DNA of 18,260 bases from a virus (Duplodnaviria > Heunggongvirae > Uroviricota > Caudoviricetes): IMG/VR virus record IMGVR_UViG_3300039366_000282, positions 1 to 18,260 of that record. The stretch is one strand, 5' to 3'. The notes under the pieces were generated by a model that was not told where the DNA came from, made no database searches, and worked only from the letters and a program-made list of their open reading frames with translations. The position numbers were made by a program, and so were the translations under genes. Numbering within the stretch: position 1 is the stretch's first letter; each line of letters begins with the position of its first letter. Below, piece after piece: positions 2,632 through 18,260 of this stretch.

Positions 2632-2649
2632 ATTTTATAACCCAGATAC

Positions 2650-2676
2650 GGGCGCCAGAAATGGCGCCTTTTTTAT
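2650..2676 (+). terminator. Rho-independent terminator after J
   Basis: GGCGCCA-GAAA-TGGCGCC perfect 7-bp GC-rich stem followed by TTTTTTATT, starting 19 nt after the J stop. Confidence 0.55.
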
Positions 2677-2698
2677 TGCAGAAAAGCGAGAGGTAATT

Positions 2699-3298
2699 AT
2701 GCGTAAATTATGTGCTGTTATTCTGTCCGCAGTAGTCTGGCTGGTTGCCGCTGGTACGCCAGCGAGCGCAGCAGAGCATCAGTCCACACTAAGCGCCGGG
2801 TATCTTCAGACCCATACTGATATGCCAGGCAGCGATGACCTGAAGGGCATTAATGTGAAATACCGTTATGAATTTACGGACACGCTGGGGCTGGTGACGT
2901 CATTCAGTTATGCCAATGCCAAAGATGAGCAAAAAACGCATTACAGCGATACCCGCTGGCATGAAGATTCAGTGCGTAACCGCTGGTTCAGCATGATGGC
3001 GGGGCCATCTGTACGCGTGAATGAATGGTTCAGTGCTTATGCGATGGCGGGTATGGCTTACAGCCGTGTGTCGACCTTCTCCGGGGATTATCTCCGCGTA
3101 ACTGACAACAAGGGGAAAACGCACGATGTGCTGACCGGAAGTGATGACGGTCGCCACAGCAACACGTCTCTGGCGTGGGGGGCTGGCGTGCAGTTTAACC
3201 CGACCGAATCCGTGGCCATTGACCTTGCTTATGAAGGTTCCGGCAGTGGTGACTGGCGCACTGACGGTTTCATCGTGGGTGTCGGTTATAAATTCTGA
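2699..3298 (+). CDS. lom: Lom outer-membrane protein (Ail/Lom family beta-barrel)
   Basis: 199-aa ORF with N-terminal signal peptide (MRKLCAVILSAVVWLVAAGTPASAA), C-terminal ...GVGYKF typical of OMP barrels; matches lambda Lom from memory; RBS GAGAGG 7 nt upstream of ATG; position immediately downstream of J as in lambda. Confidence 0.85.
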   Translation: MRKLCAVILSAVVWLVAAGTPASAAEHQSTLSAGYLQTHTDMPGSDDLKGINVKYRYEFTDTLGLVTSFSYANAKDEQKTHYSDTRWHEDSVRNRWFSMMAGPSVRVNEWFSAYAMAGMAYSRVSTFSGDYLRVTDNKGKTHDVLTGSDDGRHSNTSLAWGAGVQFNPTESVAIDLAYEGSGSGDWRTDGFIVGVGYKF

Positions 3299-3325
3299 TT
3301 AGCCAGGTAACACAGTGTTATGACA

Positions 3326-3351
3326 GCCCGCCGGTTCAGGCGGGCTTTTTT
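3326..3351 (+). terminator. Rho-independent terminator after lom
   Basis: GCCCGCC-GGTTCA-GGCGGGC stem-loop followed by TTTTTT. Confidence 0.55.
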
Positions 3352-3362
3352 GTGGAGTGGAT

Positions 3363-5738
3363 ATGGCAGCAGTAAAAATCTCAGGTGTGCTGAAAGATGG
3401 TGCGGGAAAACCAATACAGAACTGCACTATTCAACTGAAGGCAAAGCGTAACAGCACCACGGTACTGGTGAACACGGTGGCCTCTGAAAATCCGGATGAA
3501 GCCGGGCGTTACAGCATGGATGTTGAGTATGGCCAGTACAGCGTTATCCTGCTTGTTGAAGGTTTTCCGCCTTCACATGCCGGAACCATTACCGTCTATG
3601 AAGGTTCCAGACCAGGTACGCTGAATGATTTTCTCGGTGCCATGACGGAAGATGATGTCATGCCGGAGGCATTGCGTCGTTTTGAGGAAATGGTGGAAGA
3701 AGCGGCACGCAACGCCGAAGCCGCCTCTCAGAGCGCAGCGGCGGCAAAGAAATCCGAAACTGCAGCGGCATCATCGAAGAACGCGGCGAAAACCTCAGAA
3801 ACGAATGCAGCTAATAGTGCACAGGCGGCAGCGACCTCACAGACTGCATCAGAAAACTCCGCGACAGCAGCCAAAAAATCAGAAACCAACGCGAAAAATA
3901 GCGAGACAGCCGCAAAGACGAGCGAAACCAACGCAAAGTCCAGCCAGACGGCAGCGAAAACCAGCGAAACGAATGCCAAAGCCAGTGAAACTGCGGCGAA
4001 AAGCAGTCAGGATGCAGCAGCCGAAAGCGAGAGCGCGGCAGCCGGTTCTGCGACTTCAGCTGCTGGATCAGCAACTGCTGCGGCTAACAGTCAGAAAGCA
4101 GCGAAGACGAGTGAAACTAACGCAAAGTCCAGCCAGACGGCAGCGAAGACCAGCGAAACGAATGCCAAAGCCAGCGAAACTGCGGCGAAAAGCAGTCAGG
4201 ATGCAGCAGCCGAAAGCGAGAGTGCTGCAGCTGGTTCTGCAAGCGCGGCTGCTGCTTCTGCCACTGCATCAGCTAACAGTCAAAAAGCAGCAAAAACCAG
4301 TGAAACCAACGCAAAGGTGAGCGAAACAGCGGCTGCGAACTCAGCGAAAGCATCGGCAGCAAGCCAGACGGCAGCTAAAGCAAGCGAAGATGCAGCCAGA
4401 GAGTACGCAAGCCAGGCTGCGGAGCCGTATAAATATGTCTTACAGCCGCTGCCTGATGTGTGGATACCATTTAACGATTCGCTGGATATGATTACGGGCT
4501 TTTCGCCGTCATATAAAAAGATTGTTATTGGTGATGATGAAATAACGATGCCTGGCGACAAGGTTGTTAAGTTTAAACGCGCATCGAAAGCAACCTATAT
4601 TAATAAATCTGGTGTGCTGACAGAGGCTGCCATTGACGAGCCACGGTTTGAACGTGATGGCCTGCTTATTGAGGGGCAAAGAACGAACTACATGCTCAAT
4701 TCGGAAAGCCCTGCCAGTTGGGGGCGATCGTCAAATATGGATGTTCCCGAAACCGGGACGGATAGTTTTGGTTTTACCTATGGAAAGTTTGTCTGTAACG
4801 ATTCTCTGATTGGGCAAACCTCAGCCATTAATATGGCATCAATTGCTGCAACAAAGTCAGTTGATGTCTCAGGCGATAATAAATACGTGACAACCTCATG
4901 TCGTTTTAAAACAGAACTGCAGGTAAGGTTGCGTATCCGATTTGATAAATATGACGGTAGCGCAACAACTTTTCTTGGTGATGTGTATATTGATACACAA
5001 ACGCTTGAAATTAATATGACAGGCGGCGCTGCCTCAAGGATTACAGCGAGAGTCAGAAAGGACGAAGTTATCGGATGGATTTTTGCAGAGGCAACAATTC
5101 AGGCAATTGATGGGGAGTTAAAAATAGGTTCTCAGATACAGTATTCTCCTAAGCAGGGCGGGGCAACCGTATCTGGTGACTATATTTATCTGGCCACCCC
5201 ACAAGTAGAAAATGGGCCTTGTGTATCATCTTTTATTATATCAGGAACGACGGCGGCGACCCGCGCAAGCGATATAGTCACAGTTCCCATTAAGAATAAT
5301 CTTTATAATCTTCCTTTTACGGTTCTTTGTGAGGTACATAAGAACTGGTATAAAACGCCAAATGCAGCACCGCGTGTTTTTGATACCGGCGGTCATCAAA
5401 CCGGAGCGGCTATTATTCTTGGCTTCGGTTCTTCAGCAGATTACGACGGATTTCCTTATTGCGATATTGGTGGGTCTAACAGACGGATAAACGAAAATGC
5501 ATCACTTGAAAAAATGGTTATGGGGATGCGTGTAAAGTCTGATCAGTCTACATGCGCAGTAAGTAACGGGCGTATATCCAGCGAAACAAAAACCACATGG
5601 TCCTGTATTCAGAACACCGCAATTATCCGTATTGGAGGCCAGACTACAGCCGGGTTACGTCATTTATTTGGTCATGTAAGGAATTTCAGAATATGGCACA
5701 AGGCATTGACTGATGCTCAGGTGGGGGAGTCAATCTAA
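3363..5738 (+). CDS. stf: Side tail fibre protein: lambda Stf-like N-terminus, heptad-repeat shaft, divergent AT-rich C-terminal domain
   Basis: N-terminus MAAVKISGVLKDGAGKPIQNCTIQLKAKRNSTTV... matches lambda Stf from memory; ATG at 3363 preferred over track GTG 3357 (GGAG 5 nt upstream); long Ala/Ser/Thr/Lys heptad region (KTSETNA/KSSQTAA...); C-terminal ~430 aa encoded by visibly more AT-rich DNA, ending in a LamG-like motif (..VRNFRIWHKALTDAQV..). Confidence 0.8.
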   Translation: MAAVKISGVLKDGAGKPIQNCTIQLKAKRNSTTVLVNTVASENPDEAGRYSMDVEYGQYSVILLVEGFPPSHAGTITVYEGSRPGTLNDFLGAMTEDDVMPEALRRFEEMVEEAARNAEAASQSAAAAKKSETAAASSKNAAKTSETNAANSAQAAATSQTASENSATAAKKSETNAKNSETAAKTSETNAKSSQTAAKTSETNAKASETAAKSSQDAAAESESAAAGSATSAAGSATAAANSQKAAKTSETNAKSSQTAAKTSETNAKASETAAKSSQDAAAESESAAAGSASAAAASATASANSQKAAKTSETNAKVSETAAANSAKASAASQTAAKASEDAAREYASQAAEPYKYVLQPLPDVWIPFNDSLDMITGFSPSYKKIVIGDDEITMPGDKVVKFKRASKATYINKSGVLTEAAIDEPRFERDGLLIEGQRTNYMLNSESPASWGRSSNMDVPETGTDSFGFTYGKFVCNDSLIGQTSAINMASIAATKSVDVSGDNKYVTTSCRFKTELQVRLRIRFDKYDGSATTFLGDVYIDTQTLEINMTGGAASRITARVRKDEVIGWIFAEATIQAIDGELKIGSQIQYSPKQGGATVSGDYIYLATPQVENGPCVSSFIISGTTAATRASDIVTVPIKNNLYNLPFTVLCEVHKNWYKTPNAAPRVFDTGGHQTGAAIILGFGSSADYDGFPYCDIGGSNRRINENASLEKMVMGMRVKSDQSTCAVSNGRISSETKTTWSCIQNTAIIRIGGQTTAGLRHLFGHVRNFRIWHKALTDAQVGESI
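3906..4283 (+). repeat. 189-bp (63-codon) near-identical in-frame tandem duplication inside the tail-fibre shaft
   Basis: acgcaaagtccagccagacggcagcgaa... occurs at 3931 and again at 4120 (period 189 bp) with only a few substitutions; partial further units flank it. Confidence 0.85.
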
Positions 5739-6019
5739 TGAAAGATTTAACACTCAAATTTCCCGACAGGGCCGACTTTTCGGCCTTTATGGAGAGCATT
5801 GGCTATTATGATGACGAGTTGATGCAGGATGATATTCTTATTGACGTGATAGGTAACGTGTACAAAGAAACCGGAGAACTGACTGAAGATGGCGAACCGG
5901 TATGTGTTAAGGAAGACGGATATTTTGTAAACGTGCGCATCATTAATGATTCGCAAATATCGTCATTATTCGATGAATACGTGGTTGCTGTTGAGCATCA
6001 ACTTCGTGGCTGGATGTGA
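5738..6019 (+). CDS. Hypothetical 93-aa acidic protein, translationally coupled to the tail-fibre gene
   Basis: ATG overlaps the stf stop (TAATG at 5736-5740); GGGGGAG 8 nt upstream; no family recognised. Confidence 0.5.
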   Translation: MKDLTLKFPDRADFSAFMESIGYYDDELMQDDILIDVIGNVYKETGELTEDGEPVCVKEDGYFVNVRIINDSQISSLFDEYVVAVEHQLRGWM

Positions 6020-6028
6020 GGAAGAAAA

Positions 6029-7069
6029 ATGGCTACATCGACAGTAATTCCTGATGACATCAAAACGCTAAAATCCGACGTTAGCAAATTAAAAAACGAT
6101 CAAGGAAGCTACGCAACAAAATTATATGTAGACAGCAAAGATGAAATCGTTGGTGACTGGTCTGCTTCATGGTATCAGCAGGTATTGCCAACTAGCGGAG
6201 CTATATTTGGGAGAAAACTCCGCTCAACTCACAGGACGGCAGGTGTTGAGGATGCGTATTGCGAACTATACCTCAAAAAATGGATAGACAGTCCAGGTAA
6301 CGCAATGGCGCGCCTTAACCTGAACGATAACGGGACAAACATTTGCTGGGACTTTACCAACCTTTATGGCGGTACGATGATTTTTCCCGGTGACAGCGGA
6401 TACCTCAAAATGGGTAACTGCCTTATGTCATACAGCAAGCGTGGAAGTAACGCGCTTATTAAATTTGATTACACCGACACATTACAGATCAAATATGCCA
6501 ATCATGGGTCAACCATGACATTAAACACACAGGGAACCGCTTATGCTGGTGTTACTGCTCAATTGTGGGGCAACACCAGCCGTCCTGTTGTTTATGAAGT
6601 CGGTGTTGATGGTGGCGCTTATATGTTCTATGCGCAGAAAAATACCGATAACACCTATATGTTAAGCGTTAATGGTGCATGTCATGCCACCGCATTTAAC
6701 CAGCATTCCGACCGGGATCTGAAAGACAACATTCAGGTGATCGATAATGCAACCGACCGCATCCGTAAAATGAACGGCTATACATACACGCTTAAAGAAA
6801 ACGGTATGCCCTATGCTGGTGTCATTGCACAGGAAGCTCTGGAAGCAATCCCAGAAGTTGTAGGTTCCGCAATGAAATATCAGGACGGTGCAAGCGGATC
6901 GGAAGGTGAAGAAGGTGAACGTTATTACACAGTAGATTATTCTGGTGTTACTGGCTTGCTTGTTCAGGTAGCCAGAGAGTCAGACGACAGAATAACAGCA
7001 CTGGAAGAAGAAAACGCAGAATTAAGACAAAGATTATCTGCAATTGAGGCGGCGCTTGCGTCTAAATAA
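6029..7069 (+). CDS. Tail fibre/tailspike-like protein with C-terminal intramolecular chaperone (peptidase S74-type) domain
   Basis: RBS GAGGAAG before ATG; C-terminal region contains ..NQHSDRDLKDNIQVIDNATDRIRKMNGYTYTLKENG..YAGVIAQEALEAIPEVV.. followed by a coiled-coil tail (ALEEENAELRQRLSAIEAA), matching the SD-x-R-LK-x-NI self-cleaving chaperone signature of phage fibres as recalled. Confidence 0.65.
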   Translation: MATSTVIPDDIKTLKSDVSKLKNDQGSYATKLYVDSKDEIVGDWSASWYQQVLPTSGAIFGRKLRSTHRTAGVEDAYCELYLKKWIDSPGNAMARLNLNDNGTNICWDFTNLYGGTMIFPGDSGYLKMGNCLMSYSKRGSNALIKFDYTDTLQIKYANHGSTMTLNTQGTAYAGVTAQLWGNTSRPVVYEVGVDGGAYMFYAQKNTDNTYMLSVNGACHATAFNQHSDRDLKDNIQVIDNATDRIRKMNGYTYTLKENGMPYAGVIAQEALEAIPEVVGSAMKYQDGASGSEGEEGERYYTVDYSGVTGLLVQVARESDDRITALEEENAELRQRLSAIEAALASK

Positions 7070-7075
7070 TATTAA

Positions 7076-7098
7076 GGGGCCGAGCGCCCCGTTTTATT
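7076..7098 (+). terminator. Rho-independent terminator after the fibre module
   Basis: GGGGC-CGAGC-GCCCC hairpin followed by GTTTTATT, 7 nt after the stop at 7069. Confidence 0.55.
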
Positions 7099-7111
7099 GG
7101 GTAGGATGAAA

Positions 7112-7399
7112 ATGGATATAACACCTTTTCTTCATGCGCTTTGTGCTGTGGCTGCGCAGGTACTGGTTGGTTTTTTTACCGGAAACTGGGCTTACGGGGC
7201 GATAGCCGGTTGTACATTCTTCATTGCGCGGGAACACACCCAGGCAGAATATCGCTGGATTGAAATGTTCGGGCATGGCAAGCGGATTAACATGCCGTGG
7301 TGGGGCGGTTTTGATCCACGTGCATGGGATGTGGCAAGCCTGATGGATTTTGCTGTGCCGGTGGTGGCGTGTCTGCTGATCTGGATGTTGATCCGTTAA
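7112..7399 (+). CDS. Small hydrophobic (predicted membrane) protein, ~96 aa, unknown function
   Basis: ORF with two strongly hydrophobic stretches (ALCAVAAQVLVGFFTGNWAYGAIAGCTFFIA and FAVPVVACLLIWMLI); AGGA 5 nt upstream of ATG 7112 (track start 7097 is TTG; 7106 is an alternative ATG). Confidence 0.45.
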   Translation: MDITPFLHALCAVAAQVLVGFFTGNWAYGAIAGCTFFIAREHTQAEYRWIEMFGHGKRINMPWWGGFDPRAWDVASLMDFAVPVVACLLIWMLIR

Positions 7400-7747
7400 A
7401 TATAAAAAGTAAAAAGCCGCAGTAACTTGTCATGATAGGATACTGCGGCTGGCTGGTTAACTTTCGATAGTGCGAGTATTGAATGATTTCCAGCCGTTAC
7501 CGATTTTATATAACTGCAGTGGAATTATTCAACACACAGGCAAAACGGAATAAGCTGAGAAAAAAGCGTGCTTACCCAATCTGGGGTAAATCACGTCTGA
7601 ATGACACCTGAAAACAGGTGGTGGCCTCAAGAAGGCTTGGAATATTCTTCTTTAATGTTATGTAATTTATTGATTTTTCGTGTACGATTTTAAGACATTT
7701 ATTCCAAGAAAAATTTTTAACTCTTTGATTTTTCGACTCTGTATCAT

Positions 7748-7809
7748 CGGTCTCGAAAACCGGAGTAGGGGCAACTCTACCGGGGGTTCAAATCCCCCTC
7801 TCTCCGCCA
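7748..7809 (+). tRNA. Partial tRNA-Ser(CGA) (serU-type), 3' 62 nt only, without 5' acceptor/D-arm; att-core duplicate at the prophage boundary
   Basis: Anticodon stem-loop CCGGT-CTCGAAA-ACCGG (anticodon CGA), long variable arm, T-arm GGGGG-TTCAAAT-CCCCC, 3' acceptor strand TCTCTCC + G + CCA; no matching 5' strand (GGAGAGA...) upstream; matches E. coli serU 3' portion from memory. Confidence 0.75.
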
Positions 7810-8087
7810 ATCATTCAACAAAATCAATCACTTACAAAGCATTTTTGATTTTGTCGTGCATAAATCCCTGCATTAAAATTCCTTTCTCTCGCTCAATTTT
7901 TCTTACTACTGATGCTGTTTTTTACCATTTTGCCGCGCGTCGGGCATCCACTTTTATGCTCTCGAGTTCACACTCTTAACAACAACTTAGCCATTCCCCC
8001 GTCTCTGATGACAAAACAGTTGAACTTCAATTGTTCCAAACGGATCCTGTGAAGATATATCAAAGGAAATGGATTGTTGGAGGATGG

Positions 8088-10080: not shown

Positions 10081-10152
10081 TATGTTCTGGTGTCTATCTG
10101 CCCCTTCTTGGGGCTGATAACAAATATTATTTTTCTATCCAAGGAGCAAAAA

Positions 10153-10395
10153 ATGACTGATGAATTTCATGTGATGTATATGTATAAAAAAATCCAAGCG
10201 GAAGCCGTAACTACTGACATCAAAACACTTGAACAGCTTTTGAAAAAGTTCAGGAGCGTTGTCAACGAACGTCGTGAAGAATACTATCAGGAGATTGGTG
10301 AGAAAAAAGCGCATAAGTTGAAAATGAAAAGATTACAAAGAATGCTTGAGAAAATGGCGTGTGACCGAGTCTCGCCAGAAGATCTCATTGACTGA
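10153..10395 (+). CDS. Hypothetical small charged/helical protein (80 aa)
   Basis: RBS AAGGAG 6 nt upstream of ATG 10153 (track ORF starts earlier at 10090 without an RBS); product lysine/glutamate-rich. Confidence 0.4.
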   Translation: MTDEFHVMYMYKKIQAEAVTTDIKTLEQLLKKFRSVVNERREEYYQEIGEKKAHKLKMKRLQRMLEKMACDRVSPEDLID

Positions 10396-10833: not shown

Positions 10834-11139
10834 TTTTGTCAAGTATTCAGGGAATAGCAATGGCACGCCGAATTGATCTTCATGAAATTGTTAACGCTCT
10901 CAACGGGAGCTTTGTTAGTCGAAACAACGACTTTAGAAGATACGGGGCTATTGGGCAGTTAAAATCATTGGCTATCTGTATTAGCTCAGACTTGATCTGG
11001 TGGTTTTCACTGGTAGCACACTATCAAATCTGACAGTCTGCTATGAGCGAGGAGCGGAAGTTAGTACCTCCGATGCTATAGCGCAGCGTTCTTAATTATG
11101 TAAAAATATTCTACCATTCAAGTAAAGTAAGTGAAAACA

Positions 11140-12057
11140 ATGGAATTTAAACTTGATCTAAAATCCAATGCTTTAGATAGTTTTAATGAAGCCATCAAAA
11201 AATTCCAGCAAGGAGAAAATGGAGATTATAAAGCTTTCAAGTTTGCTATACTACATTTGTCTCATTGTTTTGAGTTGACGTTGAAAATGTATATTCAAAC
11301 ATTAGACGAAAACTTGATTTTTTCAAAATGCTACAGAGCAGTAATAGAGCGTGCCAAAAGTGACAAAGTCAATCTTATTGAAGCTTTTTATAAAATGGAG
11401 GCTGAAGAATTCGACTTTGAAGAACTTATTAAAGGACATAAAAATCCTCATACTATTACTTTGGATCAAGCAATATCGATAGCTACACATGAAAAGTGTA
11501 GCATAACCTCAGTGGACTTAGTTGATAAAGAGTTACTAGATGATATCGCTTGGATGAAAGATCTTAGAAATTCAATTGAGCATTACGAATTCTCGTTTAC
11601 TATTAAATATGTTCGTCTGGCAATGGGGCGTTTGGTCAGAGGGTTGGCTGAGTTCTCTGATATATTTGGTTTATACGATCTAGATAAAGAAGTTTCTAAG
11701 GAAATATCTAATTCCTATAATATACTTTCTGACGAATATGAGCATAATGTTCATGAAGGTTATCTTGATGTAGCTGATGCTAGAAAAGCAGCATTTCTTG
11801 GGGTTAGACCAAAGTTTTTTGAGTTAGTTAATTGGAAAGAATATATCTGCGATTACTGTGGTCATGAGACAATGATTCAAAATAACGATTCTACTTCAGG
11901 ATATCGTTGTACGTATTGCGGTGCCGAAGACTCAGGCTCAATTGAAGTCACATGTGATGTTTGTGGTGCTGAATGGCCTGAAGAGGAAATGAGTTCTTGG
12001 CTTGGGGAGGGGACTAACACTTGTCCTGACTGTAGAGATATTAGCAACAAACCATGA
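11140..12057 (+). CDS. HEPN-like (R-x4-H) domain protein with C-terminal four-CxxC zinc-ribbon region; candidate abortive-infection/RNase effector
   Basis: 305 aa from ATG 11140 (track GTG 11131 alternative); helical N-terminal region ending in ..WMKDLRNSIEHYEF.. (R-N-x3-H at nt 11566-11583); C-terminus carries CDYC, CTYC, CDVC, CPDC pairs; RBS weak. Confidence 0.55.
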   Translation: MEFKLDLKSNALDSFNEAIKKFQQGENGDYKAFKFAILHLSHCFELTLKMYIQTLDENLIFSKCYRAVIERAKSDKVNLIEAFYKMEAEEFDFEELIKGHKNPHTITLDQAISIATHEKCSITSVDLVDKELLDDIAWMKDLRNSIEHYEFSFTIKYVRLAMGRLVRGLAEFSDIFGLYDLDKEVSKEISNSYNILSDEYEHNVHEGYLDVADARKAAFLGVRPKFFELVNWKEYICDYCGHETMIQNNDSTSGYRCTYCGAEDSGSIEVTCDVCGAEWPEEEMSSWLGEGTNTCPDCRDISNKP

Positions 12058-13283: not shown

Positions 13284-13688
13284 TCAGAGCGCGAAGTCTT
13301 CCAGCGTTTTACCAGCTTCGATAGCAGCAGCGATCGCTTTAGGAGTACGGCCTTGACCTGTCCAAGTCTGCTCATTACCATTTTCATCTGTATATTTGTA
13401 TTTAGCAGGACGAGGAGCACGAGTTGATTTGGCTTTAGGCTGGGATGAACTAACAGCAGCAAGGAGTTCTGCCGGATCAATGCCATCTTCTAACAGTTTC
13501 TGGCGGAAGGCTTCCAGTTTAGCCTGACGTTCTTCTTGTTCTTTACGGGCTGAATTTTCTTCCTCACGGCGATCTTCAACGACAGCAGAGAGCTTTTCCA
13601 GCATCTCTTCCAGAGTTGTCAGATCTGTTTCACGAGCATGTGCGCGAAGTGTACGAATATTGTTCAGTGCCTTGAGAGCTTCACTCAT
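13284..13688 (-). CDS. H-NS family nucleoid-associated protein (island-encoded H-NS/StpA paralog)
   Basis: 134-aa product [28 protein letters not shown].. with C-terminal DNA-binding motif [12 protein letters not shown] and ..[12 protein letters not shown]..; matches E. coli H-NS/StpA from memory. Confidence 0.85.
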
Positions 13689-13844: not shown

Positions 13845-14324
13845 TTAAAGAGACATTTTCCTGCGCTTCTGGCTTGATGGCTCGAACTCTGACGAGATGC
13901 GAGATAGCTGGTCAAGACTGTATTCAATTGAACGCTGGAACTCAACAGCGGCTTCTGTGCGTTGTTTTATGACCAAGGCTACTATTTCTTCATCACTCTT
14001 TTCTGAAATAGCCTTACGGTATAACACGCGTTCGTTAAATAAATCGAGATTTCCTGATGATTTGGCTGATGTGTTAGCTTTTGAACTGCTGATAGGATTT
14101 AGCTCATCAATAAAGTATTCAATAAGCGATTCTCTCTTTTTATCCAGCCTGCGAAGTTCGGTATGTGCGGACTTAAATTTCTGAGCTTTTATCAATGGAA
14201 TATCATCAGAACGCAGTTTGCGATATTCATTTCTGTATTCTTCTATCGGAATATGGTTTTTTAGTTCTTTGACTGTATTTACGTATTCGATTAAATCACT
14301 GTTGTCTGTTTTTACTTTTCTCAT
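13845..14324 (-). CDS. Hypothetical protein (159 aa, charged/helical)
   Basis: Minus-strand ORF with GAGG 9 nt upstream of ATG 14324; no recognised family. Confidence 0.45.
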   Translation of the reverse strand: MRKVKTDNSDLIEYVNTVKELKNHIPIEEYRNEYRKLRSDDIPLIKAQKFKSAHTELRRLDKKRESLIEYFIDELNPISSSKANTSAKSSGNLDLFNERVLYRKAISEKSDEEIVALVIKQRTEAAVEFQRSIEYSLDQLSRISSEFEPSSQKRRKMSL

Positions 14325-14600
14325 AAGAAATACCTCGTAGATAAAATAGTTGATATATTTATATTACGAGATATGGTGCAGGTGTCAAATTTATGGGGCT
14401 GGGCGCTATTTTTGTATTTTACTTTTAGCTACTGTTTCTTTTGAGAAGAACCGAGAGTTAAATGTGCCGTTCTTAGTCAGTATCTTAGCGTCCACTAATA
14501 ATTTTAACCGTTCTTCATCGGTTCTCTTAGCCGCTAATTTTTTCACCTTTTTTGTCAGATCTTCAATATCTATTATTTACATCCTTATCTTTTAAGTTGT

Positions 14601-15401
14601 TTAAACAATCTGAGGTGTTTTATACTGTTCAAAAATAAGATTTCCTGAATATGTATAAATTTCTATTTTTCCTACTTTACCATCAGTGCCTTTTATCGAG
14701 AAACGAATTAATCTTTCATTATAATATTTTTCTAACAAGTCTGGTCGTTCAGTAAAATATCTTGATTTTGTTGAGCGATCTTTCAGATAGTCGCAGCTTG
14801 AACAAACCTGCTTTTTGAAATCCTTCTCAGATAAACCACTTTCTTTTATTTTTAAAGAAATAAAAGCCTTTAAAGGTCGTTCATATTCATCTCTTTCTTT
14901 TGCTTTGCGTATTTGTTCTTCTTTCTTGCGCTGTTCTTCAATACGGTAAAGTCTGCCTTGTTCTTCCTGCGCTCGTATTATATCCTCTTGAATCATTTTA
15001 CTGATGATTGAGGCAGGAACAACACTGATACCTTCAGACCACCCCTGATAAGGATTATTGTTTTGTATATTTCGGACTGTAGCAGATATTCTGTCTATAT
15101 CCAGTTCTTTATCAAAGGAAACAATGCGTTGTCTGTTTTCTTTTGATATGAGCTTAGCCGTGTTTACCGGGGATTCCAGACCCTTTAATTTGAATGTAGC
15201 TACGGCACTGTTGCGACTTCTATAATATAATGCTTGTTTCTTATCTCCAATATAACATTCAAGGTAAGAGAAAATCTTAAACTCCTGAATGCCAAATGTT
15301 TCCTCAAGCATGGTCATCTGCTCAGCCAATATATTTAGTATATCACTCTTGGATAGTTTTTCGTGGAGCTTAATCTCAAGCGAACCGGGTAGTTTTTTCA
15401 T
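14601..15401 (-). CDS. Hypothetical protein (266 aa), second gene of minus-strand operon
   Basis: Minus-strand ORF; AAGGA 7 nt upstream of ATG 15401; 27-bp gap to the upstream gene; central lysine/glutamate-rich helical segment; no recognised family. Confidence 0.5.
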   Translation of the reverse strand: MKKLPGSLEIKLHEKLSKSDILNILAEQMTMLEETFGIQEFKIFSYLECYIGDKKQALYYRSRNSAVATFKLKGLESPVNTAKLISKENRQRIVSFDKELDIDRISATVRNIQNNNPYQGWSEGISVVPASIISKMIQEDIIRAQEEQGRLYRIEEQRKKEEQIRKAKERDEYERPLKAFISLKIKESGLSEKDFKKQVCSSCDYLKDRSTKSRYFTERPDLLEKYYNERLIRFSIKGTDGKVGKIEIYTYSGNLIFEQYKTPQIV

Positions 15402-15428
15402 TGTTATTTCCTTGTTGTTGTTATTTTA

Positions 15429-16163
15429 TCAGGATACTTTCTGCATATGAGAGTCGGCGTCAACAGCGTTTCTTCTTGCTTCCTCATTTTCCTTTGTTCT
15501 TTTATATACTTTTCGTGGTTTATCAATATGTATGCTGTTATTTGTATTAGGAACAGCATTATTCTTTTTCTTCTTACTGAAAACAAATGCGTCAGTATAG
15601 ATTTCTTTGGTCTCAGTTTCTAAGGATAGGGTTCTTCTTTCACTTTTTGACATAGCTGAATAACTTTCTGGATACTGTTCTATTTCTGCGCAAAGATTGC
15701 GAGCGTTGCTCAACTGTTCTTTACGTTTCTGATCCAGTTGGTGACTCATTCCTTTAGCGAAAATGTTAGAGTTGATATAGAGATGACCATGATGCTCGAC
15801 GAGTATTCCTTTCTGTCTGAGTTTTTTAAAAATGTTAGACATATTACCGGAAGCGATGTTCAGTGCTTTACACAGCGATGATTGCGAAAGATTGATCAGA
15901 TTTCCAAACTCCATATACTCCAGAATATAGGTTAATACACGGAATTCATTCTTGGATATGTCAAGATCAGAGAAGACACGAAAGTTGGAAGTAAAAGCAA
16001 ATACATAAGGTTGTGAAAACGATATAGCTTTATCTTCCTCAGAAGAAATAACTGTCGTTGATTTTATTTCTTTGTTTTGTAGCAAGCGTCTTGCGATATC
16101 AATCTTTTGTTCTGTAGTTAATGATTCAAATAAGTGTAATAGATCAGCATCTGGTGTATTCAT
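15429..16163 (-). CDS. Winged-helix DNA-binding protein, RepL-like (putative replication initiator or regulator)
   Basis: 244 aa from ATG 16163 (track start 16226 would lie upstream of the predicted promoter); segment ..ISKNEFRVLTYILEYMEFGNLINLSQSSLCKALNIASGNMSNIFKKLRQKGILVEHHGHLYINSNIFAKG.. resembles RepL-type wHTH proteins as recalled; repeated palindromes upstream. Confidence 0.5.
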   Translation of the reverse strand: MNTPDADLLHLFESLTTEQKIDIARRLLQNKEIKSTTVISSEEDKAISFSQPYVFAFTSNFRVFSDLDISKNEFRVLTYILEYMEFGNLINLSQSSLCKALNIASGNMSNIFKKLRQKGILVEHHGHLYINSNIFAKGMSHQLDQKRKEQLSNARNLCAEIEQYPESYSAMSKSERRTLSLETETKEIYTDAFVFSKKKKNNAVPNTNNSIHIDKPRKVYKRTKENEEARRNAVDADSHMQKVS

Positions 16164-16197
16164 ATTATTCTCTCTTATTATTTTTGTTATATATATT

Positions 16198-16226
16198 TTA
16201 ATACTATGCAAAAAAGTGAAAGTCAA
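16198..16226 (-). promoter_or_regulatory. Putative sigma70 promoter for the minus-strand operon (TTGACT-17-TATTAA)
   Basis: On the minus strand, -35 TTGACT (16221-16226) and -10 TATTAA (16198-16203) are separated by 17 nt, about 35 nt upstream of ATG 16163. Confidence 0.4.
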
Positions 16227-16287
16227 TAGTAGAACTATAAATAAAATAGGAAGTATATTCTTATGACAATGTTATATGTTAAAAAAA

Positions 16288-16371
16288 CTATGTTCGAACA
16301 TAGATCTTGCTATGTTCGAACATAGGACGGATCTATGTTTGAACATAGGAGTTTGCTATGTTCGAACATAG
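16288..16371. promoter_or_regulatory. Array of four 16-bp palindromes CTATGTTCGAACATAG (one with a single mismatch) at 22-23-bp spacing; putative operator/iteron array
   Basis: Perfect palindromes at 16288-16303, 16310-16325, 16356-16371 and CTATGTTTGAACATAG at 16333-16348; located 60-150 bp upstream of the predicted promoter of the RepL-like gene. Confidence 0.6.
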
Positions 16372-16627
16372 GAAAAAAAGTTGTGAAGCCGCGATTTTAC
16401 TGGTCCGGGACTATGCTTATAATTAAATAATTAGTAAGAAGTTAAGAGAGTCCAGTTTTACTTTTGCGTTATGTTTTAGTGGTTTTACAGGGGGTATTGT
16501 ATTCCTTAATAACTGCTATCAGCGAAGTGATTGTTTCGAACAATCACGAACCGCTGCTTTTATTGCGAGAGCTTAATTAAGATTTCTTTTGTTTTATTAG
16601 CGTCTACGACGCGATCTTTTTTTGGAT

Positions 16628-16790
16628 AAATCCATCATTAACAGGGGCAAGCCCTGTCCAGCAAAGTGATTGTTGCCAACAATCACGAAGTGCTGCTACT
16701 AAGGATATAGTTTTCCTATGTGTTTAAGAGCAAATGCTATATGTCAGAGGGAATATCATGTTCGCATAGGATCTGAATTCTAACTTGGTG
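16628..16790 (+). repeat. Copy 1 of a ~160-bp non-coding direct repeat module
   Basis: aaatccatcattaacaggggcaagccctgtccagcaaagtgattgttgccaacaatcacgaagtgctgctactaagg... recurs at 17124 at roughly 90% identity (period 496 bp); contains the palindrome GTGATTGTT-GCC-AACAATCAC. Confidence 0.8.
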
Positions 16791-17123
16791 GAGGGAATGA
16801 TCTTTATACTGATCGCTTTGTTGTCCATTGATAAAATATTAATGCATTATAGCTGAACAAGGAAAATAGTTTTATACCAGTATTAGGGGCGTAGCCGTGC
16901 GCCAGCACAATGTATGTATTTTCAAAAAAATAATTGAATGTATCAGGTAAAAATAAATATCAATAAATGTAAGTAAGAGTGTTCTGTAAACTGTTAATAA
17001 ACCGCACAGGAAGTGTGGTAAGGATTTGGGATCTGAAAGATAACACATATAACCATCTTCACGCTTAAAGCTCTTATAACTGATTACAGGCAGTAATTTA
17101 TATGGGAAAAATTATTAATTGAA

Positions 17124-17286
17124 AAATCCATCATTAACAGGGACAAGCCCTGTCCAGCAAAGTGATTGTTGGCAACAATCACGAAGTGCTGCTACTAAAG
17201 ATATAGTTTTCCTATACGTTTAAGAGCAAATGCTATATGTCAGATGGGGAATGCTATGTTTAAAAATAGGATCCGAATTAAAAGTT
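17124..17286 (+). repeat. Copy 2 of the ~160-bp non-coding direct repeat module
   Basis: Near-identical to 16628-16790; palindrome GTGATTGTT-GGC-AACAATCAC at 17162-17182; hairpin CAGGG-ACAAG-CCCTG. Confidence 0.8.
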
Positions 17287-17520: not shown

Positions 17521-17790
17521 ATGAATAATATCAAAATGATCACACTCTTCCATCCACATGACAAAACACCATTTATGATCTGTATTGTAAACACAGTAGA
17601 AGATACAGAACTTGGATTGAAATTAACTCTTGAAAACGGCAACAGCATTTGTGTCAATAACTATGACCATTATCTGTTATCAGAGTCTGTAAGTCGTTGT
17701 GATAAAGACAGGGTGAAAAATATTTATATCCGTTTGGTTTCAGAACTCACACAGATGAGTGAAGAAACTATAAAATCACAGATGTTATAA
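17521..17790 (+). CDS. Hypothetical small protein (89 aa)
   Basis: ORF with RBS AGGAAAATATA-ATG; possible promoter TTGATT-18-TATTAA at 17462-17491; no recognised family. Confidence 0.4.
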   Translation: MNNIKMITLFHPHDKTPFMICIVNTVEDTELGLKLTLENGNSICVNNYDHYLLSESVSRCDKDRVKNIYIRLVSELTQMSEETIKSQML

Positions 17791-17873: not shown

Positions 17874-18260
17874 ATGAGAAAAATAAAAACAAAAATCTAC
17901 TTGCCTACAGCTTTAACAGGAAACATGGATAAACACTATATCCCTGTTTTAGAGGATTTAAGAAAAACGATATACAGCGACAGAATGTTATCAAGGCTTG
18001 CAGATAGCGGCAATATTGTTATCCATAGTTCAGTTGGGTATCCGGTTGCTAAGTATAAAAACACGGGGATTAGCATAGGCATAGAACCATTAAATCCGAT
18101 GATAAGACAAGATCTGACTCTTGGATATATCGTGGTAGTCAGAAACGGAAAAGCATCACAGGAGATTAATGGTTTACTTAACAGGTCATTGCCAAAAGCG
18201 ATAAGCACTTTTAAGGACCATATTAATGAATATGAAGCAGCAAAAAGTAAAATGCGATAA
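17874..18260 (+). CDS. Hypothetical protein (128 aa)
   Basis: ORF with RBS CAGGAAAATATC-ATG (same context as the preceding gene); stop TAA at the window end. Confidence 0.4.
   Translation: MRKIKTKIYLPTALTGNMDKHYIPVLEDLRKTIYSDRMLSRLADSGNIVIHSSVGYPVAKYKNTGISIGIEPLNPMIRQDLTLGYIVVVRNGKASQEINGLLNRSLPKAISTFKDHINEYEAAKSKMR

What the first reader, a model, noticed from the sequence alone, without database searches (positions are those of the whole stretch)
13845..16371. Minus-strand three-gene operon headed by a RepL-like wHTH protein, with a near-consensus promoter and four 16-bp perfect palindromes
Genes 15429-16163 (RepL-like winged helix), 14601-15401 and 13845-14324 are co-directional with a 27-bp first gap and Shine-Dalgarno motifs. 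Upstream lie a TTGACT-17-TATTAA promoter and four copies of CTATGTTCGAACATAG spaced about two helical turns apart. This is either a replication/maintenance module of an integrated plasmid-like element or a tightly autoregulated module of unknown function; the two downstream proteins match nothing I recognise.
Basis: partly seen in the sequence, partly recalled or inferred. Interest (0 to 1): 0.65.

Follow-up and report, generated by a model that had tools for sequence, protein, structure and literature searches.

The report
Plasmid-type replication origin inside genomic island
This stretch of an E. coli ROD21-like genomic island carries what looks like a complete small-plasmid replication module, an initiator gene plus its four-repeat origin. 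That matters because the only published study of this protein (SEN1990) concluded it has no role in replication and did not describe the origin.

Summary
Three co-directional minus-strand genes exist. Upstream lie a TTGACT-17-TATTAA promoter-like site and four 16-bp palindromes at 22/23/23-bp spacing. Three palindromes are perfect and one has a mismatch.

The locus lies in an EARL (ROD21-like) excisable island of E. coli. The first gene belongs to the SEN1990 family. I find it homologous (30-49% identity) to the experimentally proven Rep initiators of the pHW126 family of 2-3 kb enterobacterial plasmids (pIGRK, pIGMS31, pHW126).

The upstream DNA has the same order of elements as their mapped minimal origins: hairpins, a TCTTA-rich invariant block, an A/T tract, four dyad-symmetric repeats about 22 bp apart, a TATTGACT -35 and then rep. 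This non-coding origin is conserved across more than 10 genera while synonymous sites of rep are saturated. The palindrome centres change symmetrically.

Best reading: a latent pHW126-type replicon, autoregulated, for the excised or transferred island. The two downstream proteins are orphans with no informative fold. They are variably present and not core.

Against this, deleting SEN1990 in ROD21 changed neither the island's copy number nor the amount of excised form. Replication function is therefore inferred, not shown.

Verdict: new variant of a known kind, moderate interest.

The parts
15429..16163 (-). rep: 244-aa SEN1990-family winged-helix protein, homologous to Rep initiators of pHW126-family plasmids (pIGRK RepR, pIGMS31 RepM).
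   Evidence: Pfam RepL 20.9 bits and HTH_36. tblastn gives 37-49% identity to the sole rep genes of 2.3-3.1 kb plasmids. Alignment A1 has invariant GNLI..Q and NS.IF.KG motifs. dN/dS is 0.03-0.12. RefSeq names it 'SEN1990 family wHTH' or 'RepL'.
16198..16226 (-). Promoter-like site for rep: -35 TTGACT (16221-16226), 17-nt spacer, -10 TATTAA (16198-16203).
   Evidence: Coordinates. The TATTGACT context is conserved in all 15 island loci. The same context is shared with pIGRK, pHW126, pIGMS31 and related plasmids.
16288..16371 (.). Four 16-bp dyad-symmetric repeats (iteron-like Rep sites): three perfect CTATGTTCGAACATAG and one CTATGTTTGAACATAG, centre spacing 22/23/23 bp, starting 61 bp upstream of the -35.
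   Evidence: They are conserved in number and position in 15 loci plus the Salmonella loci. The centres change symmetrically: TTCGAA, TTTAAA, TGCGCA.
16372..16383 (-). T7 tract immediately upstream of the first repeat. It is the counterpart of the A/T tract that precedes IT1 in the plasmids.
   Evidence: Sequence. The plasmid counterparts are seen.
16414..16451 (-). Nearly invariant 38-nt block ACTCTCTTAACTTCTTACTAATTATTTAATTATAAGCA (28% GC origin core). Candidate counterpart of the plasmids' 'conserved region' (CR).
   Evidence: Column conservation is 0.95-0.99 over 15 sequences from about 10 genera. The position matches that of the plasmid TCTTA-repeat block. Sequence similarity is weak: 19/1000 and 14/1000 shuffles for the two best plasmids and not significant for the others, and the nhmmer profile missed it.
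16520..16556 (-). Proximal 37-nt hairpin or extended inverted repeat: CAGCG..GTGATTGTT-loop-AACAATCAC..CGCTG. It sits at a fixed distance (about -385 to -430) from the rep ATG in all loci and is the analogue of the plasmids' ssi-like palindrome.
   Evidence: As ssDNA it folds at -11.3 kcal/mol, z = -4.3. The outer pair switches A-T (21 copies) to G-C (12 copies) in a compensatory way, and there are two compensatory changes in the inner stem.
16625..16751 (-). First copy of a 127-nt direct repeat. It carries distal hairpin 1 (16659-16695) followed by hairpin 2 (16641-16657, CAGGG-loop-CCCTG).
   Evidence: Fold energy is -15.8 kcal/mol, z = -4.8. There are 2-5 such units per island across loci.
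17121..17247 (-). Second copy of the 127-nt repeat (94% identical). It carries hairpin 1 (17155-17191) and hairpin 2 (17137-17153).
17254..17269 (.). Isolated fifth, degenerate Rep-site-like palindrome CTATGTTTAAAAATAG, about 87 nt upstream of a distal hairpin. The same arrangement occurs in most related loci, often with a perfect site.
14601..15401 (-). 266-aa orphan protein, 27 bp downstream of rep and probably co-transcribed with it. Function unknown.
14361..14388 (-). Promoter-like site TTGACA-16-TAATAT ahead of the DUF4756 gene. It lies inside a window-specific insertion of about 195 bp that also holds a 46-aa ORF (14406-14546).
   Evidence: The corresponding gap is only 82-83 bp in L005-L007 and L027.
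13845..14324 (-). DUF4756 protein (159 aa), all-helical, function unknown. It is a frequent backbone gene of EARL islands.
13284..13688 (-). Island-encoded H-NS paralogue, co-directional and 156 bp downstream of DUF4756. Candidate silencer of the AT-rich module while the island is integrated (inference).
   Evidence: Pfam Histone_HNS_N 2e-24 and Histone_HNS 1e-16. The same gene order is seen in the Salmonella loci and in ICEKp258.2.

Best explanation
Window 15429 to about 16560, with accessory repeats up to about 17270, is a pHW126-family-type replication module carried by an EARL (ROD21-like) excisable, mobilizable genomic island.

Proposed mechanism. Only the sequence anatomy, the homology and the conservation are shown here; all mechanistic steps are inferred from the plasmid homologues.
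1. The 244-aa winged-helix Rep binds as a dimer to the four dyad-symmetric 16-bp sites. These sites are phased about two helical turns apart.
2. Together with the adjacent invariant AT-rich block, they form the origin.
3. The same binding represses the strong rep promoter 61 bp downstream. This autoregulation, plus silencing of the 28-35% GC region by H-NS (the island encodes its own paralogue just downstream), keeps the origin quiet while the island is integrated.
4. After excision, or after entry into a new cell as single-stranded DNA, Rep fires the origin.
5. The conserved upstream hairpins act as single-strand initiation signals for complementary-strand synthesis. This lets the circular form persist until it integrates.

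The 266-aa and DUF4756 proteins are accessory cargo of unknown function, not core parts of the module.
For: 1. Homology to proven initiators.
- tblastn finds 37-49% identity over residues about 15-170 to the rep genes of 55 plasmids, nearly all of 2.3-3.1 kb. These include pIGRK, pIGMS31 and pHW126.
- Invariant motifs are shared in alignment A1.
- RepR and RepM were shown to be required in trans, to bind IT1-4 and to autorepress (PMC6854812; bioRxiv 10.1101/2022.12.05.519187).

2. Same origin layout as the mapped minimal origins (CR + IT1-4).
- There are four repeats at about 22 bp phasing, about 125 bp upstream of the ATG. An A/T tract lies beside repeat 1, a TCTTA-rich block lies 40-70 nt upstream, and hairpins lie further upstream. 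The -35 is TATTGACT.
- The plasmid iterons are themselves inverted repeats: GTTATAG-ATTC-CTATAAC and AGTTATG..CATAACT.

3. Constraint on the DNA itself.
- In 15 loci from about 10 genera the four sites keep their position.
- Their centres change symmetrically.
- Reps only 56-61% identical keep the same sites.
- The non-coding segment -300..-120 differs by only 0.08-0.16, while dS of rep is 1.3-2.9.
- Conservation falls below 0.7 upstream of -400.

4. The sites lie 61-144 bp upstream of the -35 and do not overlap the core promoter. A conserved invariant block and hairpins lie beyond them. This is more than a simple operator needs.

5. rep plus the origin is the only part always present. The downstream genes vary.

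6. Hairpins.
- They fold stably as ssDNA, z = -4.3 to -5.2.
- They show compensatory changes.
- Within 44 kb of the island they occur only here.
Against: 1. The only experiment on an orthologue was negative (ROD21 SEN1990; same 90% cluster and the same origin sequence in Salmonella loci).
- The ROD21:rpoD ratio was 1.
- The relative attP amount was unchanged in the deletion mutant (PMC10655114).
- The authors themselves note that at 3% excision a replicating subset could escape detection.

2. The same study reports a transcriptional effect on oafB. It also reports a non-significant 2-fold rise of the downstream gene in the mutant. Both fit a plain regulator.

3. The module is never seen on a plasmid in 5,426 complete E. 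coli genomes. In PLSDB the only full-length hit is a 4.8-Mb record.

4. Similarity of the invariant block to the plasmid CR is weak. A profile search did not recover it.

5. The hairpins resemble the plasmid ssi elements in arrangement, not in sequence.
Confidence: 0.55

Rival explanations
1. Domesticated transcription factor. The protein is only a winged-helix regulator, as the SEN1990 family is now annotated. It represses its own small operon through the four palindromes and modulates a few chromosomal genes such as oafB. The plasmid-like origin is an evolutionary relic with no replicative activity.
For: - Deleting SEN1990 changed neither ROD21 copy number nor the amount of excised form.
- oafB fell about 2-fold and was restored by complementation.
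- The downstream gene rose 2-fold, though not significantly (PMC10655114).
- The plasmid homologues are also autorepressors.
- No autonomous copies exist in E. coli.
Against: - A relic would not keep an invariant 38-nt block, four phased sites and fixed-position hairpins across about 10 genera while synonymous sites are saturated.
- The sites do not overlap the core promoter.
- No further copy of the palindrome exists elsewhere in the 18-kb window or in 44 kb of the island.
- The oafB effect is small. It was not statistically separated from the complemented strain.
Confidence: 0.28
2. Incompatibility or exclusion device. The integrated Rep and iteron array does not replicate the island. Instead it titrates or handcuffs incoming related replicons (sister islands or pHW126-like plasmids), protecting the resident element from competitors.
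For: - In pIGRK and pIGMS31 the IT1-4 arrays are incompatibility determinants when cloned.
- The array and rep are conserved although replication was not detected in ROD21.
Against: - The island repeats (CTATGT..ACATAG) differ from those of every small plasmid examined, so cross-reaction with known plasmids is unlikely.
- This reading does not explain the invariant block or the hairpins.
- There is no direct evidence for it.
Confidence: 0.07
3. Transfer origin (oriT). The long non-coding region upstream of rep, with its hairpins, is the island's oriT, as the ROD21 authors speculated. The wHTH protein is then a relaxosome accessory factor.
For: - The region is poorly transcribed and non-coding, and the authors suggested it as oriT.
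- Inverted repeats are typical of oriTs.
- The island has a MobQ relaxase and a TraD-like protein.
Against: - The relaxase and traD genes lie about 17 kb away. They have their own 645-bp divergent intergenic region with inverted repeats, which is the usual place for a MOBQ oriT.
- The hairpin motif is absent from that region.
- The layout matches mapped vegetative origins of homologous Rep proteins.
Confidence: 0.05
4. Partition (centromere) module. The palindrome array is a centromere bound by the wHTH protein. One of the downstream proteins would be the motor.
For: Arrays of phased repeats upstream of an autoregulated operon are typical of type Ib and type II partition loci (general knowledge).
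Against: - Neither downstream protein has an NTPase signature or fold.
- They are missing from many islands that keep rep and the repeats.
- The wHTH protein is homologous to Rep initiators of plasmids that have no partition genes.
Confidence: 0.03

Closest known systems
pHW126-family REP modules of small enterobacterial plasmids (pHW126; pIGRK RepR/IT1-4/CR/ssi; pIGMS31 RepM)
   Same: - Homologous wHTH Rep, 30-49% identity with shared invariant motifs.
- Four roughly 20-bp repeats at 22-23 bp phasing, about 125-135 bp upstream of the ATG.
- An A/T tract beside repeat 1.
- A TCTTA-rich block 40-70 nt further upstream.
- One or two hairpins beyond that.
- A TATTGACT -35.
- Very low GC.
(PMC6854812; bioRxiv 10.1101/2022.12.05.519187).
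   Different: - The module sits in a chromosomally integrated island of tens of kb, not a 2-3 kb plasmid.
- The repeats are near-perfect 16-bp palindromes with a different sequence.
- The hairpins are unrelated in sequence and are multiplied, 2-5 copies within 127-nt repeats.
- There is an extra isolated Rep-type site.
- rep is followed by accessory genes and an H-NS paralogue.
- Similarity to the plasmid CR is statistically weak.
- Autonomous replication is unproven.
SEN1990 of Salmonella Enteritidis island ROD21 (EARL family of excisable genomic islands; ICEKp258.2 is a relative)
   Same: - Same protein family. The window protein falls in the same 90%-identity cluster as the Salmonella Enteritidis and Dublin proteins, and RefSeq labels some E. 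coli copies 'SEN1990 family'.
- Same gene order: DUF6387, AlpA, H-NS, DUF4756, 263-266 aa protein, rep.
- The long upstream non-coding region was noted by the authors.
.
   Different: - The published account treats the protein as a transcription regulator. It rejects a replication role on the basis of low identity to Firmicute RepL proteins and of qPCR.
- Its text mentions neither the pHW126-family homologues nor the palindromes (0 occurrences of 'pHW126' or 'palindrom').
Firmicute RepL (Pfam PF05732; pSN2/pIM13-type plasmids)
   Same: Marginal Pfam match, 20.9 bits against a cutoff of 20.3. pHW126-like Reps are described as distant relatives of pSN2 RepL.
   Different: The SEN1990 authors report identity below 19%. 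The match barely passes the cutoff, and the origin structure was not compared here.
Integrative elements with plasmid-type replicons (SGI1 oriV/RepA; SXT/R391 and ICEBs1 replication after excision)
   Same: The concept is the same: an integrated mobile element keeps a replication function that operates only in the excised or transferred state. This rests on my own knowledge and on the reference lists.
   Different: The replicon family differs. ICEBs1 and SXT use the conjugative relaxase and oriT, and SGI1 uses an iteron RepA of another family. Here replication has not been demonstrated.

Membership tests
pHW126-like replication module | Rep protein with a central wHTH, homologous to pHW126 Rep, pIGRK RepR and pIGMS31 RepM. 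| tested here: met
   tblastn E values of 1e-12 to 4e-32 and 34-49% identity to these plasmids' rep genes. Alignment A1 has 23 invariant columns, including GNLI and NS.IF.KG.
pHW126-like replication module | Four iteron-like repeats (IT1-4) of about 20 bp with about 22-bp periodicity upstream of the rep promoter. | tested here: met
   Four 16-bp repeats at 22/23/23 bp, located 61-144 bp upstream of the -35. The number and phasing match pIGRK, pHW126, pIGMS31, pWP3-S18-CRE-02_8 and pF16KP0064-2.
pHW126-like replication module | Conserved region (CR) upstream of the iterons, characteristic of all family members. | tested here: inconclusive
   A nearly invariant 38-nt block sits at the equivalent position. 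For five of six plasmids the best local alignment includes its TCTTA-rich core; for the sixth (pIGRK) it covers the ACTCTC..TAAC start of the block. Only two are better than about 98% of shuffles (19/1000 and 14/1000). An nhmmer profile of plasmid CRs did not detect it.
pHW126-like replication module | ssi-like palindrome upstream of the CR (non-essential; prevents multimerisation). | tested here: inconclusive
   Stable conserved hairpins lie upstream, with the distal copies arranged as two hairpins as in the plasmids. There is no sequence homology, and their function is untested.
pHW126-like replication module | Strong rep promoter autorepressed by Rep. | not testable with these tools
   A promoter-like site with a conserved TATTGACT is present. 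The only data are a non-significant 2-fold rise of the downstream gene in the ROD21 mutant.
pHW126-like replication module | Supports autonomous replication (origin in cis, Rep in trans); the element is a small plasmid. | not testable with these tools
   All 197 E. coli copies are chromosomal. The ROD21 copy number was 1 and was unaffected by the deletion. No cloning test exists.
SEN1990 family / EARL (ROD21-like) genomic islands | Location in an island with the EARL backbone (DUF6387, AlpA-type RDF, H-NS paralogue, DUF4756, MobQ relaxase, TraD, type IV pilus genes) at a tRNA gene. | tested here: met
   Pfam hits in the window. A tRNA fragment lies at 7755-7806. The annotated identical locus sits next to tRNA-Ser and carries MobQ, TraD and PilV. 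The backbone is described in PMC10763509.
SEN1990 family / EARL (ROD21-like) genomic islands | Protein orthologous to SEN1990. | tested here: met
   The window protein is in the same 90% cluster as Salmonella Enteritidis and Dublin proteins. [quoted passage not shown] Residue numbering (K118-L121) matches the paper.
Firmicute RepL (PF05732) | Score above the Pfam gathering threshold over the RepL domain. | tested here: inconclusive
   The score is 20.9 bits against a cutoff of 20.3, E = 2.7e-4. It is out-scored by the generic HTH_36 model. No NCBIfam model hits.
Plasmid partition system | An NTPase (ParA, ParM or TubZ) encoded next to the centromere-binding protein. | tested here: not met
   No NTPase family or fold is found in either downstream protein.
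Anti-phage defence system | Match to a known or candidate defence family. | tested here: not met
   PADLOC gives no family for the 266-aa and DUF4756 proteins. Rep gives only a weak Csa3 wHTH-type hit (7.5e-4).

The most novel reading that the evidence does not exclude
EARL/ROD21-type genomic islands are integrative plasmids in disguise.

- They carry a complete, selectively maintained pHW126-type origin and initiator.
- This replicon is silent in the chromosome. It fires only in the excised or newly transferred circle.
- The published conclusion that SEN1990 has no replication role would then reflect the assay conditions (3% excision, H-NS-silenced locus).
- As a corollary, the puzzling low-GC cryptic pHW126-like plasmids of Enterobacteriaceae and these low-GC islands would draw on one common pool of replicons.
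- The multiplied hairpin units would be island-specific single-strand priming signals used after conjugative entry.
Probability: 0.4. Interest if true: 0.6.

Novelty: new variant of a known kind. Interest (0 to 1): 0.45.

Why it matters
ROD21, ICEKp258.2 and their relatives are excisable islands linked to virulence and to successful clones of Salmonella, Klebsiella and E. coli. How their excised form survives and spreads is unknown.

If the island carries a working plasmid-type replicon, three things follow:
- It would explain how a rarely excised, mobilizable island persists between excision and re-integration.
- It would reopen a published negative conclusion about SEN1990.
- It would give a simple, testable handle, the 16-bp palindromes and the invariant block, for manipulating island stability.

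It would also extend a poorly understood plasmid replication family, one that mixes theta-like and rolling-circle features, to large integrative elements.

If the module is only a regulator, the finding is a well-conserved but ordinary autoregulated wHTH locus.

Tried and rejected
- **Rfam.** Nothing real was found in the region. The 'mir-302' hit at 16288-16348 is just the palindromes.
- **CR homology by profile.** nhmmer with six plasmid CR regions did not find the island block. Pairwise tests were only weakly significant. I therefore do not claim CR homology.
- **DnaA boxes and IHF sites** in the intergenic region: only one-mismatch DnaA-like words and no IHF consensus. This is uninformative in AT-rich DNA.
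- **Specificity co-variation.** I expected divergent Reps (56-61% identity) to have different repeats. They have the same ones, so that test is not available within the island clade.
- **Partition, defence and oriT readings** were rejected for the reasons given under the rival explanations.
P0001 loci were used instead.


Full report
**1. What is in the sequence**

The window is E. coli chromosome. Bases 1-7400 (51% GC) encode the tail end of a lambdoid prophage. A tRNA 3' fragment lies at about 7755-7806. From about 7800 onward the DNA is a 37% GC island.

A 100% identical copy in E. coli NZ_CP031215 sits next to tRNA-Ser. It continues into a DotA/TraY-like gene, a MobQ relaxase, TraD and type IV pilus genes.

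The backbone is DUF6387, an AlpA-type excisionase, H-NS paralogues and DUF4756. This is the backbone of the EARL family of excisable islands, which includes ROD21 of Salmonella Enteritidis and ICEKp258.2 of Klebsiella ST258 (PMC10763509).

**2. Check of the observation**

The three minus-strand ORFs exist as described. The rep to 266-aa gap is 27 bp. All three genes have Shine-Dalgarno-like motifs.

The promoter-like site is TTGACT (16226-16221), 17 nt, TATTAA (16203-16198). It matches 5/6 and 4/6 of the consensus hexamers, and a strict consensus scan does not list it.

The palindrome CTATGTTCGAACATAG is perfect at 16288, 16310 and 16356. At 16333 it has one mismatch. Centre spacing is 22, 23 and 23 bp. 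Chance expectation for the five matches at <=3 mismatches is 0.08.

The third gene is 276 bp from the second and has its own promoter-like site at 14388-14361. In this window the gap contains an insertion of about 195 bp. That insertion is absent from close relatives, where the gap is 82-83 bp.

**3. Identity of the first protein**

Pfam gives a marginal RepL match (20.9 bits against a 20.3 cutoff) and generic wHTH models. [quoted passage not shown] It falls in the same 90% cluster as proteins of Salmonella Enteritidis and Dublin.

A tblastn search against 72,556 plasmids was decisive. Apart from one mislabelled 4.8-Mb record, 55 hits at 34-49% identity were found. Nearly all are in plasmids of 2.3-3.1 kb, where the homologue is the only gene besides a mobilisation gene.

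Three of these plasmids are the characterised members of the pHW126 family: pHW126, pIGRK and pIGMS31. Their Rep proteins were shown to be required in trans for replication, to bind the origin repeats, to dimerise and to repress their own promoter (PMC6854812; bioRxiv 10.1101/2022.12.05.519187).

The alignment shows 23 invariant columns. These include GNLI..Q and NS.IF.KG around the wHTH.

**4. The upstream DNA is laid out like the mapped origins of those plasmids**

In pIGRK and pIGMS31 the minimal origin is a 'conserved region' (CR) plus four roughly 20-bp iteron-like repeats with 2-nt spacers, a 22-bp period. It lies upstream of a strong rep promoter. A dispensable ssi-like palindrome lies further upstream.

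Reading those plasmids and three further relatives directly, I find that:
- the 'iterons' are themselves inverted repeats: GTTATAG-ATTC-CTATAAC in pIGMS31, AGTTATG..CATAACT in pF16KP0064-2, and GTTG.C..G.CAAC in pIGRK and pHW126;
- an A/T tract abuts repeat 1;
- a block rich in TCTTA words lies 40-70 nt upstream;
- two hairpins lie beyond that;
- the -35 is embedded in TATTGACT.

The window, read on the minus strand, shows the same order:
- hairpin, 16556-16520;
- nearly invariant block ACTCTCTTAACTTCTTACTAATTATTTAATTATAAGCA, 16451-16414;
- T7 tract;
- four palindromes, 16371-16288;
- TATTGACT -35;
- rep ATG, 125 bp after the last repeat.

**5. Evolutionary constraint**

Fifteen island loci from Escherichia, Citrobacter, Enterobacter, Brenneria, Pectobacterium, Dickeya, Buttiauxella, Mangrovibacter, Phytobacter and Symbiopectobacterium were fetched.
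- All carry four palindromes at the same positions.
- The outer arms CTATGT/ACATAG are almost invariant. The central bases change in a mostly symmetric way (TTCGAA, TTTAAA, TGCGCA), so dyad symmetry is largely preserved.
- Two metagenomic islands whose Rep is only 56-61% identical still have the same four sites.
- Salmonella loci are the same.
- Column conservation is 0.95-0.99 in the invariant block, about 0.9 in the repeats and promoter, and 0.83-0.94 in the hairpin. It falls below 0.7 upstream of -400.
- rep is under strong purifying selection, dN/dS 0.03-0.12. Synonymous divergence from the window copy to the plant-pathogen clade is saturated (dS 1.3-2.9). Yet the non-coding segment -300..-120 differs at only 8-16% of positions.

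The DNA itself is therefore under selection, and over a longer stretch than a simple operator would need. The repeats lie 61-144 bp upstream of the -35, not over the core promoter.

**6. Hairpins and extra repeats**

The 1.7-kb non-coding region (32% GC) holds three copies of a 37-nt extended inverted repeat. Two of them lie inside 127-nt direct repeats and are followed by a second hairpin.

Across loci there are 2-5 copies. The proximal copy sits at a fixed distance from rep. In an alignment of 42 copies the inner stem is invariant apart from two compensatory changes. An outer pair switches between A-T (21 copies) and G-C (12 copies). As single-stranded DNA the hairpins fold with z-scores of -4.3 to -5.2.

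An isolated fifth Rep-type site lies about 87 nt upstream of a distal hairpin in most loci.

The hairpin motif occurs nowhere else in 44 kb of the island, including the mobQ-traD intergenic region, which is the usual place for a MOBQ oriT.

These hairpins resemble the plasmids' ssi elements in arrangement. They do not resemble them in sequence.

**7. The downstream genes**

The 266-aa protein has no match in Pfam, NCBIfam, PHROGs, PADLOC or PDB sequences.
- Its family has only 43 clusters among 1.84 billion representatives.
- Distant members carry no Pfam domain.

Neither protein looks like an NTPase or a nuclease. tblastn detected the 266-aa gene in 9 of the 15 loci and DUF4756 in 11. One Pectobacterium island has a second Rep paralogue instead of the 266-aa gene. 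One metagenomic island has rep and the origin with no co-directional gene downstream.

Only rep plus the origin is the constant unit.

**8. What is published on this exact protein**

Hoppe-Elsholz et al. 2023 (PMC10655114) modelled SEN1990 as a three-stranded wHTH and found homologues in 25 EARL islands.
- They compared it only with Firmicute RepL proteins (<19% identity).
- They reported that ROD21 is present at one copy per chromosome.
- They reported that deleting SEN1990 does not change the relative amount of the excised form.
- They concluded that it is not involved in replication or maintenance.
- They saw oafB (SPI-17) fall about 2-fold and the downstream gene rise 2-fold (not significant).
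- They noted the long, poorly transcribed upstream region and guessed that it might hold oriT.
- They caution that with 3% excision a replicating subset could be missed, and that a role after conjugation was not tested.

Their text mentions neither pHW126-family plasmids nor palindromes. In the searchable library, no paper other than that study discusses SEN1990's function or links it to that family.

**9. Interpretation**

The best-supported reading (about 0.55) is a latent pHW126-type replicon of the island. A dimeric Rep would bind four phased dyad sites that, with the invariant AT-rich block, form the origin. The same binding, together with H-NS silencing of this 28-35% GC DNA, would hold the module off while the island is integrated. 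The origin would fire in the excised or newly transferred circle, with the hairpins serving as single-strand initiation signals.

Shown here are the homology, the shared architecture and the selective constraint. Binding, autoregulation, silencing and firing are inferred from the plasmid homologues.

The main rival (about 0.28) is that the protein is now only a transcription regulator and the origin is inactive. It fits the ROD21 experiments, but it explains the conservation of the whole origin poorly. Incompatibility, oriT and partition readings are weaker still (see the rival explanations).

**10. Family membership**

For the pHW126-like REP family, two features are met: Rep homology, and the four phased repeats upstream of the promoter. 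Two are inconclusive:
- the CR, where positional equivalence and invariance are clear, but sequence similarity reaches only 14-19 per 1000 shuffles for two plasmids and a profile search missed it;
- the ssi element, which is analogous but not homologous.

Autoregulation and autonomous replication cannot be tested with these tools. All 197 E. coli copies, in 186 of 5,426 complete genomes, are chromosomal.

I therefore describe the module as working like, and being related to, a pHW126-type replicon. It is a variant embedded in an integrative island rather than a plain family member.

**11. Verdict**

The locus is already annotated and its protein has been studied. What appears to be new is the link to experimentally proven Rep initiators and the recognition of a complete, strongly constrained origin next to the gene. 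This runs counter to the published functional conclusion and is directly testable with simple cloning. Interest is moderate (0.45). Novelty: new variant of a known kind.

Noticed in passing
window 1-7810: A lambdoid prophage tail region (J-like 49-2631, Lom-like 2699-3298, a side tail fibre 3357-5738 with long Ala/Ser/Thr-rich repeats, and a tail-fibre assembly-like gene) ends next to a tRNA 3' fragment (about 7755-7806). The EARL island follows directly. In NZ_CP031215 the identical island abuts an intact tRNA-Ser beside mtfA instead, so this genome seems to have prophage and island in tandem at one tRNA-Ser site.
   Followed up: partly
window 11131-12057 (+): A 308-aa protein with C-terminal CxxC pairs matches the PADLOC candidate defence family PDC-S64 (E = 1.6e-16). 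It has no Pfam family.
   Followed up: no
window 14325-14600: A window-specific insertion of about 195 bp lies between the 266-aa gene and DUF4756. It carries a 46-aa ORF (14406-14546, minus strand, GTG start) and a promoter-like TTGACA-16-TAATAT. Close relatives have only an 82-83 bp gap here.
   Followed up: partly
L013:7820-8302 (Pectobacterium colocasium island): A second Rep paralogue (38% identical to the window Rep, with the same RepL/HTH_36 Pfam pattern) sits downstream of the first rep, at the position where other islands have the 266-aa gene.
   Followed up: partly
window 16618-16648 and 17114-17144 (minus strand): Just after distal hairpin 2, the sequence GCCCCTGTTAATGATGGATTTATCCAAAAAA resembles the plasmid motif CCCTTG.TATTACTG..TTT..AAAAAA. 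In the plasmids that motif lies immediately upstream of iteron 1. It was the top, non-significant nhmmer hit (E = 0.11). This could mean that the distal 127-nt units are remnants of duplicated origins.
   Followed up: partly
window 17254-17269 and equivalent sites in L007-L019: A single extra Rep-type palindrome lies about 87 nt upstream of a distal hairpin and is conserved in most islands. It is often perfect (CTATGTTTAAACATAG) in other genera but degenerate in this window.
   Followed up: partly
window 17521-17790 (+) and 17874-18260 (+): Two small genes (89 aa and at least 128 aa) lie divergent from rep, across the non-coding region. Both are conserved in many related islands and have no family match.
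   Followed up: no
window 10090-10395 (+) and 13284-13688 (-): The island encodes two H-NS-family proteins, a full-length one and a short N-terminal-domain-only one. The same pair is seen in the Salmonella loci.
   Followed up: no
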